DNA from: a virus
Taxonomy: Duplodnaviria; Heunggongvirae; Uroviricota; Caudoviricetes
IMG/VR virus record: IMGVR_UViG_3300032335_000499
Direction: 5' to 3' (one strand)
DNA length: 64,000 nt
Of this stretch, positions 19,152 through 22,080 are shown one piece after another. The notes beneath the pieces were generated by a model, which saw only the letters and a list, made by a program, of their open reading frames with translations, made no database searches and had not been told where the DNA came from. Position numbers and translations under genes: made by a program. Position 1 is the stretch's first letter; every line of letters begins with the position of its first letter.

Positions 19152-19355
19152 ATGGGATATCGTGTTCTTCGTGACCGTGAGACTAAGTATCAGCCGCGCA
19201 AGGGTCTTGAAGGTCCCTTCTTCTATCCAAACGGTCGAGTAACATACTACGACCCGAAAGAGGGCGCATACTGGGACCCAACAACTGACTTTTATCTGTC
19301 TTTTGAGGAACAGAACGAACTCCAAAATATGATTTTTGATAAACTTAAGGCTTGA
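19152..19355 (+). CDS. small early hypothetical protein
   Basis: AAGGAG RBS; GLEGPF...YYDPKEGAYWDPTTDFY. Confidence 0.75.
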   Translation: MGYRVLRDRETKYQPRKGLEGPFFYPNGRVTYYDPKEGAYWDPTTDFYLSFEEQNELQNMIFDKLKA

Positions 19356-19380
19356 CATTGCAAGCCTACCGTTGTATAGT
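19352..19380 (+). promoter_or_regulatory. sigma70 promoter
   Basis: TTGACA-N17-TATAGT. Confidence 0.8.
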
Positions 19381-19412: not shown

Positions 19413-20573
19413 ATGGCTCGTCGCCCCGCAATCATCAAAGCTAAGTCTACTAAGAAGACTACTCGTGCCCCTCGTCGCGGCGTCAATCGCTTTAGCTTGA
19501 TGCCCACTGACAATTGGGATAAGGCTAGGTTCTTTGCTCACTATGATGTTGAGCGCAAAGATTGCGGCAACAAGGTTAGGGAGTATATCAAACAGAACTT
19601 TCCTAAAGATGTACTGACTAAGATCAATCGTCTTCCTGATTGGAAGGTTGATATGTATAGTCATTGGGCTGCTACTGCCCATCTTCTTGAAGTTAATCCT
19701 AATCTTGTTCCAGATGGCTATAAGACTGGTCTCGTTAAGTGGATTGAGACGCTTGCCATTGAAGGTTCTGCACTCACTGCTAAGAAAGAAGAAACCGAAG
19801 GTGAAGAGAAGCCTAAGAAGGTAGTCAACATTCAGGAAATTATGCGTGAAAAGGCTGATGAAGCCTTCGGCGACATTGAAGCACTGTTTGACGAATTTAT
19901 TGATTCGGGCTGCTCTAAGGATTTCAGCGTTGACAAGAAGGTGGTAGGCGCACTGGCTACTCGTAATATTCTCCCGCAGCATATGGCTAGTGCTATCAAG
20001 CGTTATCAACGACTGCTTGACGAATATCTTGAAGTTCAGGGTGGCAAGTGCGATCAATTGAACGAGGGCTATAGTCACTATAGCAAGATGCAAATCCGTT
20101 ACGCTATCAAGATTATCGAAGACATTATCGCCGAAATGAATGGCTACATCAGTCTTAAGCAGGCTACTAAGAAGCCTCGTGCTAAGAAGGCTGTACCTGT
20201 TGAAAAGATTGTCGCTCGTCTTAAGTATTGTAAGGCGTTTAAGGACGATGCACTCATGCTTGAACTTACTGGTCTAAGCCCCGTTAAGCTTCATGAGAGC
20301 ACCGAAGCTTGGGTCTATGACACTAAGAAGCGTAAGATGCATCACTACGTTGCAGACGCTTACAGTAAGTGTCTGATGGTCAAGGGCAATACTATCATTG
20401 GTTTTGACAAGAAAGAAAGCGGCATGAAGACGCTTCGCAAGCCTGTTGAACAGATTAAGGCGTTGATGGGTAGTAAGCCCGTTGCTCGTAAGTATTTCAA
20501 GGAGATCAAGGCTGTTGAGGCTGTACCAAATGGTCGCTTCAATGCTGATATGGTCATCCTCAAAGCATTCTAA
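19413..20573 (+). CDS. hypothetical early protein
   Basis: 386 aa, AGGAG RBS, high-expression codon bias, basic C-terminal domain. Confidence 0.75.
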   Translation: MARRPAIIKAKSTKKTTRAPRRGVNRFSLMPTDNWDKARFFAHYDVERKDCGNKVREYIKQNFPKDVLTKINRLPDWKVDMYSHWAATAHLLEVNPNLVPDGYKTGLVKWIETLAIEGSALTAKKEETEGEEKPKKVVNIQEIMREKADEAFGDIEALFDEFIDSGCSKDFSVDKKVVGALATRNILPQHMASAIKRYQRLLDEYLEVQGGKCDQLNEGYSHYSKMQIRYAIKIIEDIIAEMNGYISLKQATKKPRAKKAVPVEKIVARLKYCKAFKDDALMLELTGLSPVKLHESTEAWVYDTKKRKMHHYVADAYSKCLMVKGNTIIGFDKKESGMKTLRKPVEQIKALMGSKPVARKYFKEIKAVEAVPNGRFNADMVILKAF

Positions 20574-20584
20574 AAGGAAAATAT

Positions 20585-20998
20585 ATGACAACTCAAATTG
20601 ATTTAAACAAGTACGCAGATTTTGTTCTTACTGTAGCGTCGGAACCTAGCAAGGATGCAGAAACATTTGTAGAGCATGTTCGTAAGCTACACAACAACAG
20701 CCGTGTTAATATCCCGTTGCTACTCACTTCAGGTATCGGTCTTGCTAGTGAAGGTGGAGAGTTCAACGAAATCGTGAAGAAGATTTTCTTTCAGGGTAAG
20801 CCCCTCAACGAAGAAAACATTTTTCATATGAAGCGTGAACTAGGCGATATTATGTGGTATTGGATGAACGCTTGTAACGCACTTGGTCTTGATCCTAACG
20901 ATGTTATTGCTGAAAACGTTAGCAAGCTAGAAGCACGTTATCCAGGCGGCGAGTTTGATGCACACTACAGCGAGAACCGCAAAGAAGGTGACTTGTGA
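20585..20998 (+). CDS. mazG: MazG-like nucleotide pyrophosphohydrolase
   Basis: GLASEGGEFNEIVKK...KRELGDIMWY...NVSKLEARYP. Confidence 0.85.
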   Translation: MTTQIDLNKYADFVLTVASEPSKDAETFVEHVRKLHNNSRVNIPLLLTSGIGLASEGGEFNEIVKKIFFQGKPLNEENIFHMKRELGDIMWYWMNACNALGLDPNDVIAENVSKLEARYPGGEFDAHYSENRKEGDL

Positions 20999-21234
20999 GC
21001 AATAAGCTTGAAGCATCTATTTTAAAACTTATCGCTGAACAGTTTGGTTTAGGCAAAGTACATCCTAAAGATCGTCTCATTGAGGATTTAAAGGGCGATG
21101 CATTAGACGCAATTGAACTTGTAATGCGCCTAGAAGAAGAATTTAATGTTCAGATACCTGATGAAAAACTAGACTATATCATCACTGTACAGGATGCTAT
21201 TGATTGCGTTATTAAAAGTAAGCAGTTAGTTTAA
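20995..21234 (+). CDS. acyl carrier protein homologue lacking the phosphopantetheine serine
   Basis: IIAEQ-like helix 1, EDLKGDALDAIELVMRLEEEFNVQIPDE...TVQDAID; DSL is DAL. Confidence 0.85.
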   Translation: MSNKLEASILKLIAEQFGLGKVHPKDRLIEDLKGDALDAIELVMRLEEEFNVQIPDEKLDYIITVQDAIDCVIKSKQLV

Positions 21235-21257
21235 GTACAATAGAATAGAGGTCGTGG

Positions 21258-21292
21258 TCGTTTCCTGATAAATAAAGTATAACAGGAAACGA
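21258..21292 (+). promoter_or_regulatory. late promoter in the loop of an RBS-occluding hairpin
   Basis: TCGTTTCCTG / CAGGAAACGA perfect 10 bp stem; ATAAATA 21268-21274 in the loop. Confidence 0.8.
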
Positions 21293-21294
21293 AC

Positions 21295-22080
21295 ATGGCA
21301 GCAGACCTTCTAGCAACACCAAATAACCAAGACTTAATTGAGTACAAGCAAGGACTCTTTGAGAACCTTCGTCTACGTATGGGCGGCGACATTGTTGACC
21401 TCGAACTTGACCCTCAGCACTATGAAGCAGCATATAATTATGCCATCAAGCTTTACCGCCAAAGAGCGCAGAACGCTAACATAGAATCATACACACTCTT
21501 CACCGTACAGAAGAATGTGTATGAATACACGTTGCCCAGCGAATTCATCAACGTAAGATCCCTGTTCAGACGCACAGTAGGGCTTGAGACAGGTCCAAGT
21601 TCAACGTCATTTGACCCGTTCTCAAGTGCAATTCTCAATACCTATCTACTGAATTATAACTATACCGGTGGTCTTGCTACATACGATTTTTATGCAGGCT
21701 ACGTAGAACTTACAGCACGTATGTTTGGTGGTTATCTTACATATACCTTTAACCCGGTTAGTAAGTTGCTAAAGGTCACTAGAGACTTCAAAGGAACCGG
21801 CGAACGCATTCTTATTTGGGCAGACGTACAACGTCCCGAACTAGAATTGTTACAGGATCCTGGCGCAGGGGTTTGGATTGGCGACTATATCCTAGCAGTG
21901 CTTAAAGGCATCATTGGTGAAGCTCGTGAGAAGTTTCAATCAATTGCAGGTCCTGGTGGCGGAACGTCACTGAATGGTGCTGCTATGAAGGCTGAATCCA
22001 AAGCAGACCAAGAGCGATTGATAATGGAATTGAAAGCCTACGTAGATTATTCGCAGCCTCTCACTTGGGTACAAGGTTAA
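21295..22080 (+). CDS. gp13: neck protein (gp13-like)
   Basis: LRLRMGGDIVDLELD, EAREKF...GPGGGTSLNG, C-terminal PLTWVQG. Confidence 0.75.
   Translation: MAADLLATPNNQDLIEYKQGLFENLRLRMGGDIVDLELDPQHYEAAYNYAIKLYRQRAQNANIESYTLFTVQKNVYEYTLPSEFINVRSLFRRTVGLETGPSSTSFDPFSSAILNTYLLNYNYTGGLATYDFYAGYVELTARMFGGYLTYTFNPVSKLLKVTRDFKGTGERILIWADVQRPELELLQDPGAGVWIGDYILAVLKGIIGEAREKFQSIAGPGGGTSLNGAAMKAESKADQERLIMELKAYVDYSQPLTWVQG

What the first reader, a model, noticed from the sequence alone, without database searches (positions are those of the whole stretch)
20585..21234. Acyl carrier protein with a natural Ser-to-Ala change at the prosthetic site, coupled to MazG
Seen: a clear ACP sequence, but the invariant DSL reads DAL (codon 36 = GCA at 21100-21102, one base from TCA) with no nearby Ser; the gene overlaps mazG (GTGA) in an early operon. 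Established: without this Ser an ACP cannot carry phosphopantetheine; apo-ACP is inhibitory to lipid metabolism; E. coli ACP binds SpoT and MukB. Inference: a permanent apo-ACP mimic or decoy, perhaps acting with MazG on the stringent response or on ACP-dependent host or defence enzymes.
Basis: partly seen in the sequence, partly recalled or inferred. Interest (0 to 1): 0.75.

Follow-up and report, generated by a model that had tools for sequence, protein, structure and literature searches.

The report
Serine-less ACP-like partner of phage MazG
A giant uncultured T4-like phage encodes a small protein with the fold of an acyl carrier protein that can never carry its cofactor; it belongs to a whole family of such serine-less proteins that always sit next to the phage nucleotide-cleaving enzyme MazG, and in other phages the same two modules are fused, so it probably works with MazG rather than in lipid synthesis.

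Summary
Window 20995-21234 (+) encodes a 79-aa protein with a confident ACP fold. It reads DAL where ACPs read DSL (codon 36 = GCA, 21100-21102), and its GTG start overlaps the mazG stop (GTGA).

It is neither a sequencing error nor a private mutation:
- All 120 listed close homologues lack Ser (117 Ala, 3 Val).
- More distant alleles carry Ala, Gln, Asp or Pro.
- Three synonymous Ala codons occur, and dN/dS is about 0.25.

In two IMG/VR scans, every serine-less member lay just downstream of a MazG gene, in two different genomic contexts. None of 54 Ser-bearing viral ACP loci had a MazG nearby. Independently, Rhizobium phage P106B and many relatives encode one polypeptide with an N-terminal ACP-like domain and a C-terminal MazG. 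That domain has DSLD intact in some and decayed in others.

Against an obligate pair: 56 of 80 close MazG orthologues have no ACP-like gene. The MazG-gp13 slot is hypervariable, and the alleles do not co-vary.

The stringent-response idea is weak. The characterised cyanophage MazG, of the subfamily this one matches at about 60% identity, does not touch (p)ppGpp, and apo-ACP does not bind SpoT.

Best reading: an optional, non-carrier ACP-fold accessory module of phage MazG. Its mechanism is only inferred.

The scan noted the same stretch in an overlapping window of this genome, not on other DNA.

The parts
19352..19380 (+). sigma70-like promoter candidate (TTGACA-17-TATAGT) ahead of the p386-mazG-acpL run
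   Evidence: 11 of 12 matches. This is a consensus match only; the region as a whole has no more such sites than shuffled sequence.
19413..20573 (+). 386-aa protein of unknown function (PHROG 11903), first gene of the run. It is syntenic in most relatives but absent from the second MazG-ACP context.
20585..20998 (+). MazG-type NTP pyrophosphohydrolase, 137 aa, with E56-x-x-E59 and E85-x-x-D88 present
   Evidence: Pfam PF03819 at 36.2 bits. PHROG 229 at 1.5e-48. About 60% identity to cyanomyovirus MazG. Motif read.
20980..20998 (+). Translational-coupling junction: AAGGTGA run, then GTG start overlapping the mazG TGA stop (GTGA)
   Evidence: sequence; ORF coordinates. The same overlap occurs in relatives.
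20995..21234 (+). Serine-less ACP-fold protein, 79 aa, pI 4.6
21100..21102 (+). Codon 36, GCA = Ala, at the position of the phosphopantetheine-bearing Ser of ACPs
21295..22080 (+). T4 gp13-like neck protein. It marks the downstream edge of the hypervariable slot that holds the ACP-like gene.
   Evidence: PHROG 211. PF26809 Phage_T4_gp13 in relatives. Slot comparison.

Best explanation
The gene encodes a stand-alone ACP-fold module that has permanently given up carrier chemistry. It most likely acts as an optional accessory partner of the phage MazG dNTP pyrophosphohydrolase.

Shown:
- The fold is ACP.
- The cofactor Ser is absent throughout the family.
- The acidic docking helix II (D35, L37, D38, E41, M44, E47, E48) is invariant.
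- The gene is under purifying selection.
- It is translationally coupled to mazG.
- Homologues of both proteins occur fused in one chain in other phages.

Inferred:
- The protein is made in step with MazG from the coupled early transcript.
- It binds MazG, or an ACP-binding protein on MazG's behalf, through helix II.
- It thereby tunes, stabilises or localises MazG activity on dNTPs.
- Which of these effects applies is unknown.
For: 1. Ser loss is a family trait.
- 117 Ala and 3 Val among the 120 close homologues.
- Distant alleles carry A, Q, D, P or V.
- The site uses codons GCA, GCC, GCT, GTA, CCG, CAA and GAT.

2. Adjacency to MazG.
- All of the roughly 38 serine-less loci in the ACP-based IMG/VR scan lie directly after a MazG gene. 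The five distant metagenomic representatives do too.
- None of 54 Ser-bearing viral ACP loci has a MazG within about 5 kb, even when queried with two MazG subfamilies.

3. A second context keeps the pair. In L013 and L036 the order is GGACT, MazG, (62-aa ORF), ACP-like, DUF3307, kinase/NMNAT-like. No gp13 or sheath gene lies on that 72-kb contig.

4. Rosetta-stone fusions.
- P106B_67 (246 aa) matches PHROG 229 MazG over its full length (8e-50) and PHROG 5934 ACP at residues 41-74.
- Relatives P0278, P0279, P0286 and P0287 carry PF00550 with DSLD intact. Many others have it decayed.
- The window ACP-like protein aligns to P0279 at 39% identity and the window MazG at 28%.

5. Helix II is as invariant as in canonical ACPs.

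6. dN/dS is about 0.25.
Against: - MazG does not need it. 56 of 80 MazG loci at 69-96% identity have no ACP-like gene within 2 kb.
- In the same p386-MazG-[slot]-gp13 synteny the slot is either empty or holds unrelated small genes. These also start at the MazG stop, so the coupling could be a property of the position.
- ACP-like and MazG alleles do not co-vary. Examples: MazG 87-91% with ACP 51-52%, and MazG 69-77% with ACP 81-88% (Spearman 0.37).
- Most adjacency cases come from one phage clade, so independent observations are few: about three, counting the fusions.
- The AF2 monomer of fusion P0279 has pTM 0.52, so no docking of the two domains is predicted. The linker is long and variable.
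- No MazG-ACP fusion was found within the window's own family.
Confidence: 0.45

Rival explanations
1. It is a host-directed apo-ACP mimic that acts independently of MazG. In this reading it is one of several interchangeable early accessory genes in a hypervariable slot. Its conserved helix II docks on host ACP-binding enzymes (AcpS, Fab and Lpx enzymes, PlsB-type acyltransferases, MukB-type partners) or on a defence protein. It blocks or hijacks them, and lacking Ser it can never be loaded.
For: - The slot between MazG and gp13 holds different small genes or none.
- The ACP-like gene is the fastest-evolving gene of the neighbourhood. It has discrete allele classes (dN 0.37-0.50 against 0.06-0.20 for its neighbours) and dN/dS 0.25 against 0.05-0.12.
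- The helix II residues used for AcpS and enzyme docking are invariant (the roles of D35, E41, E47 and E48 in AcpS binding are from bioRxiv 10.1101/2025.01.28.635281).
- MukB accepts apo-AcpP (PMC8602292).
- From my own knowledge, not re-read here: apo-ACP overproduction is toxic in E. coli (Keating, Carey and Cronan 1995).
Against: - It does not explain why the family is never found away from MazG, including in a second genomic context.
- It does not explain why ACP-like domains are fused to MazG in unrelated phages.
- Two of the best-known non-FAS partners need the cofactor: SpoT and IscS.
- The host is unknown.
Confidence: 0.3
2. One reading: MazG lowers (p)ppGpp, and the apo-ACP mimic jams the ACP-SpoT sensor. 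Together they hold the host in a non-stringent state.
For: E. coli MazG was reported to lower (p)ppGpp, and ACP binds the SpoT TGS domain (background cited in PMC6850273 and PMC6606846). The SpoT-contacting residues of ACP lie in helix II (PMC3340395), which is conserved here.
Against: [quoted passage not shown] The window MazG is about 60% identical to MazGs of that cyanomyovirus kind; its identity to S-PM2 itself was not measured.
- Unmodified ACP cannot interact with SpoT.
- By the title of Battesti and Bouveret 2009 (listed; not read), the ACP-SpoT link is specific to bacteria with two RelA/SpoT-like proteins. The host here is unknown, and an earlier unchecked note hints at an alphaproteobacterium.
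Confidence: 0.05
3. It is still a carrier that uses another attachment point, for example the family-specific Cys71 thiol, or a cofactor added elsewhere.
For: Position 71 is Cys in about 81% (sequence-weighted) of the family, where canonical ACPs have Tyr or Phe.
Against: - No precedent known to me.
- Cys71 is not universal: P0133 has Ala and another allele has Ile.
- No second ACP-like gene lies in the window. Synthase, ligase and PPTase genes were not systematically searched.
Confidence: 0.03
4. It is a sequencing error, a private mutation, or a decaying pseudogene of a phage ACP auxiliary gene.
For: GCA is one base from TCA.
Against: - 120 of 120 close homologues, each seen on up to 31 contigs, lack Ser.
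- Three synonymous Ala codons are in use.
- The reading frame is intact in all loci, and dN/dS is about 0.25.
Confidence: 0.01

Closest known systems
Type II acyl carrier protein AcpP (E. coli, Vibrio harveyi; PDB 1ACP, 2L0Q)
   Same: Same four-helix fold. About 40-45% identity, E about 1e-14. The helix II docking residues D35, L37, D38, E41, M44, E47 and E48 are identical. It is acidic, pI 4.6.
   Different: Ser36 is replaced by A, V, Q, D or P. Loop I is two residues shorter. Family-specific changes are L17F, F28L, A34G and Y71C. It sits in a phage nucleotide-metabolism and structural context, not a fab operon.
ACP-like-MazG fusion proteins of alphaproteobacterial phages (Rhizobium phage P106B gp67; Agrobacterium phage 7-7-1 MazG-like protein; PHROG 229 members with N-terminal extensions)
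   Same: The same two modules occur together. The ACP-like part often has a decayed DSLD motif, and the module is optional within the family.
   Different: - There the two are fused in the order ACP then MazG, with a 30-100 aa linker. Here they are separate, overlapping genes in the order MazG then ACP.
- The MazG domains are only 28% identical and belong to another subfamily (ELGG in place of ELGD).
- As far as I found, nobody has described the ACP-like part of these annotated 'MazG-like' proteins.
Cyanomyovirus MazG (S-PM2 enzyme; Rihtman et al. 2019, PMC6850273)
   Same: The window MazG is about 60% identical to cyanomyovirus MazGs (S-ShM2, S-RIM14). The characterised S-PM2 enzyme of this kind prefers dGTP and dCTP and is inactive on (p)ppGpp.
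   Different: The nearest such MazG locus inspected (Marine virus AG-345-E02) has no ACP-like neighbour, and MazG hits in the cultured cyanophages overlap gp41 primase-helicase annotations instead. Identity to S-PM2 itself was not measured.
Plasmodium falciparum mitochondrial ACP (Falekun et al. 2021, PMC8547962)
   Same: By that paper's title, it is a divergent ACP that works in Fe-S cluster biogenesis uncoupled from fatty acid synthesis, so a scaffold rather than an acyl carrier. That it lacks the Ser is my recollection; only the title and the start of the abstract were read.
   Different: It is eukaryotic and organellar. By my recollection its partner is Isd11-Nfs1 and the replacing residue is Phe. 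There is no link to nucleotide metabolism.
E. coli AcpP as a MukB cofactor (Prince et al. 2021, PMC8602292)
   Same: The ACP acts as a protein cofactor, and apo and holo forms work equally well.
   Different: That is the ordinary Ser-bearing AcpP moonlighting, not a dedicated serine-less paralogue.

Membership tests
Acyl carrier protein / PP-binding (PF00550), as a fold family | Four-helix ACP fold and a significant profile match | tested here: met
   Pfam 36.7 bits against a cut-off of 20.8. PDB AcpP matches at about 1e-14. AF2 pLDDT 89.3 with the expected helices. BFVD hits to phage ACPs with TM 0.8-0.9.
Acyl carrier protein, as a functional carrier | Conserved Ser of the DSL motif that receives 4'-phosphopantetheine | tested here: not met
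   Ala36 in the window. No Ser in any of about 150 family members.
Acyl carrier protein, as a functional carrier | Acidic recognition helix II (D35, D38, E41, E47, E48) | tested here: met
   Invariant across the family.
Acyl carrier protein, as a functional carrier | Cognate partners in the genome (PPTase, synthase, ligase or acyltransferase) | not testable with these tools
   No whole genome is held. The records of the related 336-kb contigs are not held. The window has only this one ACP-like ORF, and its PPTase content was not screened.
MazG all-alpha NTP pyrophosphohydrolase (the partner gene, 20585-20998) | PF03819 profile match and the E-x-x-E ... E-x-x-D metal-binding motif | tested here: met
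   Pfam 36.2 bits against a cut-off of 22. PHROG 229 at 1.5e-48. E56/E59 and E85/D88 read from the sequence. The motif definition is from my own knowledge.
ACP-like-MazG two-module proteins (PHROG 229, N-extended members) | Homologues of both modules present together | tested here: met
   The window ACP-like protein is 39% and the window MazG 28% identical to the two halves of P0279.
ACP-like-MazG two-module proteins (PHROG 229, N-extended members) | Both modules in one polypeptide | tested here: not met
   They are separate overlapping ORFs in different frames in all loci. No longer fused relative of the window ACP-like protein was found (weak evidence).
Physical MazG/ACP-like complex | Direct binding or a predicted interface | tested here: inconclusive
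   Only a monomer fold of a natural fusion was possible. It gave pLDDT 83 but pTM 0.52. No multimer prediction tool was available.

The most novel reading that the evidence does not exclude
The ACP fold has been recruited repeatedly by phages as a cofactor-free adaptor for MazG, fused in alphaproteobacterial phages and split in this giant T4-like clade. The adaptor would use the universal ACP docking helix to plug the phage dNTP pyrophosphohydrolase into a host ACP-binding hub, or to gate its activity. That would tie nucleotide-pool remodelling to the host's lipid or growth-state machinery. It would also give the long-unexplained phage MazG its first known partner.
Probability: 0.25. Interest if true: 0.75.

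Novelty: new variant of a known kind. Interest (0 to 1): 0.58.

Why it matters
MazG is widespread in marine T4-like cyanophages, yet its role in infection is still debated, because the stringent-response idea failed biochemically. A dedicated partner module that is conserved, cofactor-free and ACP-shaped, fused in some phages and translationally coupled in others, is a concrete handle on that question. Pull-downs and kinetics with and without the partner become obvious experiments.

It also adds a viral example to the short list of ACPs that work as pure protein scaffolds. And it warns annotators that 'acyl carrier protein' calls in phage genomes do not all imply lipid or polyketide chemistry.

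Tried and rejected
- Megablast of the region against cultured phages found nothing.
- The top tblastn 'phage' hit (Acinetobacter phage MD-2021a) is a bacterial rpmF-fabD-fabG-acpP locus in a mislabelled record.
- A search for longer, fused relatives of the window ACP-like protein found none.
- The maximum-likelihood tree of 61 ACPs has too few columns. Type 1 and type 2 serine-less clades are each supported, but their union is neither shown nor rejected (p-AU 0.31).
- An Fe-S / IscS idea, prompted by earlier notes of radical-SAM and SufT genes in this genome, was set aside because ACP S36T does not bind IscS.
- The Sinorhizobium phage HMSP1-Susan ACP looked like a second adjacency. It keeps DSL, and its neighbour is PHROG 27218, not MazG.
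- The ESM Atlas search added nothing.
- PADLOC has no model matching the ACP-like protein, MazG or p386.
- Whole-genome checks for a PPTase or a second ACP were impossible.

Full report
**What is there.** ORF 20995-21234 (+) encodes 79 aa.
- It passes Pfam PP-binding at 36.7 bits (cut-off 20.8) and PHROG 5934 at 5.6e-17.
- It aligns over its whole length with solved type II AcpPs at E about 1e-14, with Ala36 opposite the cofactor Ser.
- AF2 gives pLDDT 89.3 with the four ACP helices, and residue 36 caps helix II.
- Codon 36 is GCA at 21100-21102.
- The GTG start overlaps the TGA of a 137-aa MazG gene at 20585-20998 (Pfam 36.2 bits; PHROG 229 at 1.5e-48). An AAGGTGA run lies just upstream.
- A strong sigma70-like site at 19352-19380 precedes the run p386-mazG-acpL.
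- Neighbouring genes are T4-like: a gp15-like gene, gp13, a dNMP kinase, sheath and tube.

**Not an error.** A search of 5.8 billion proteins returned 152 relatives. All 120 listed (78-99% identical) read D-A-L (117) or D-V-L (3), and none reads D-S-L.
- An exhaustive HMMER scan of 1.84 billion representatives shows the family as a single 50%-identity cluster. After a gap come ordinary ACPs and a handful of further serine-less proteins at about 50% identity: P0126, P0132, P0157 and P0171 with GDALD, and P0133 with ADPLD.
- Across the loci the site uses GCA, GCC, GCT, GTA, CCG, CAA and GAT.
- Pairwise dN/dS is about 0.25, against 0.10 for MazG, 0.05 for gp13 and 0.12 for the dNMP kinase. The gene is functional, though under looser constraint than its neighbours.

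**Link to MazG.** Each of the five distant serine-less representatives lies directly downstream of, and overlapping, a MazG gene (Pfam).
- In an IMG/VR scan with a family alignment, every locus with a non-Ser residue (A, V, P, Q or D) follows a MazG that is 68-100% identical to the window's.
- None of the 54 D-S-L loci has a MazG within about 5 kb, even when a second MazG subfamily is used as query.
- Most cases share the synteny p386-MazG-ACP-gp13-dNMP kinase, so they are not independent.
- L013 and L036 keep the pair in another setting: GGACT, MazG, (62-aa ORF), ACP-like, DUF3307, kinase/NMNAT-like. No gp13 or sheath gene lies on that 72-kb contig.

**Fusions elsewhere.** Foldseek of the model against viral structures hit a 246-aa 'NTP pyrophosphohydrolase' of Rhizobium phage P106B.
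- That protein (P106B_67) matches PHROG 229 MazG along its full length (8e-50) and PHROG 5934 ACP at residues 41-74. Its DSLD motif is degenerate and has no Ser.
- Its relatives include many N-extended forms. P0278, P0279, P0286 and P0287 have PF00550 and an intact DSLD. Others have decayed motifs, others a different N-terminal domain, and many are MazG alone.
- The window's two proteins align to the two halves of P0279 at 39% and 28% identity.
- This is a domain-fusion argument for a functional link, and it shows that the Ser is dispensable for that link.

**Counter-evidence.** A MazG-based IMG/VR scan found 56 of 80 loci (69-96% identical MazG) with no ACP-like gene within 2 kb.
- In the same synteny the interval between MazG and gp13 is empty (about 55 nt) or holds unrelated small genes. 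These include a 59-62-aa charged helical protein, a 63-69-aa protein with a hydrophobic N-terminus, a zinc-ribbon protein and a 291-aa protein.
- These genes all start at the MazG stop. The slot is therefore hypervariable, and translational coupling is partly a property of the position.
- The ACP-like gene has discrete allele classes (dN 0.37-0.50 between classes, against 0.06-0.20 for neighbours). These do not track MazG alleles.
- The AF2 monomer of fusion P0279 folds both domains (pLDDT 83), but pTM is 0.52, so no packing is predicted.

**What it probably does.** Helix II (D35, L37, D38, E41, L42, M44, L46, E47, E48) is invariant, as in true ACPs. Family-specific changes are L17F, F28L, A34G, Y71C and a shorter loop I. 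So the protein keeps the universal ACP docking surface but not the chemistry.
- The reading best supported by comparative genomics is an optional accessory module of phage MazG. How it acts (activity tuning, stabilisation or targeting) is inference.
- The main rival is an independent decoy of host ACP partners. It fits the hypervariable slot and the fast evolution, but not the exclusive MazG association or the fusions.

The stringent-response mechanism is unlikely.
- The window MazG is about 60% identical to cyanomyovirus MazGs. The characterised S-PM2 enzyme of that kind does not bind or cleave (p)ppGpp.
- Apo-ACP does not bind SpoT.
- ACP S36T does not bind IscS.
- MukB does accept apo-AcpP, but the host is unknown.

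**Novelty.** Full-text searches for MazG together with acyl carrier protein and phage found no description of this association. Serine-less scaffolding ACPs are known elsewhere (Plasmodium mACP). I therefore rate this a new variant of a known kind.

**Limits.**
- No whole genome was available.
- No multimer prediction was possible.
- The look-up of encoding contigs closed.
- The scan had noted this same stretch in an overlapping window of the same genome; that follow-up was withheld.

Noticed in passing
Slot between mazG and gp13: window 20998-21295; relatives L110:2411-2649, L134:2399-2639, L150:2411-2649, L118:2411-2852, L170:2408-3558, L114:2411-2466: This is a hypervariable cassette slot in one phage clade. 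It holds the ACP-like gene, a 59-62-aa charged helical protein, a 63-69-aa protein with a hydrophobic N-terminus, a zinc-ribbon protein (PF10497-like), a 291-aa protein, or nothing. Every occupant starts at the MazG stop codon.
   Followed up: partly
P0134 (516-aa bacterial protein from the representative search): A Shedu-type defence nuclease (SduA_C / DUF4263) carries two N-terminal serine-less ACP-like domains (DGDALD and DGDVLD). It ranked among the 15 best hits to the phage protein out of 1.84 billion. Its genomic context could not be fetched.
   Followed up: partly
L005:2962-4206 (Aeromonas phage Aswh_1 rIIB): rIIB of this T4-like phage begins with a PP-binding domain (32.3 bits) that reads D-E-L instead of D-S-L, followed by an HTH. 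The 'lysis inhibitor' of Aeromonas phage 65.2 was also a weak Foldseek match to the ACP model (E 0.38). This is a second serine-less ACP-like module in a T4-like early protein.
   Followed up: partly
L036:4798-4986: The 62-aa ORF inserted between MazG and the ACP-like gene ends in N-R-K-E-G-D-L, the same C-terminus as MazG. It looks like a duplicated MazG 3' end left by cassette insertion, which would preserve the coupling signal.
   Followed up: no
Window 21205-21207 (codon 71 of the ACP-like gene): Cys71 replaces the Tyr or Phe of canonical ACPs in about 81% (sequence-weighted) of the serine-less family. The reason is unknown.
   Followed up: no
L008, L031, L013, L016 compared with window 20585-22080: The locus is a mosaic. 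Examples: MazG 77% identical with gp13 97% (L008), and MazG 98% with gp13 92% (L031). This indicates frequent recombination between neighbouring genes in this clade.
   Followed up: partly
A5 alignment (P0273-P0371; MazG family of Rhizobium and Agrobacterium phages): This MazG subfamily has K-E-L-G-G where MazG normally has E-L-G-D. The second metal-binding motif lacks its Asp, so the catalytic status of this subfamily is uncertain.
   Followed up: no
L001 (CAKLQH020000007.1, 'Acinetobacter phage MD-2021a'): This record in the phage collection carries rpmF-fabD-fabG-acpP and other housekeeping genes. It is bacterial chromosome, not phage.
   Followed up: yes
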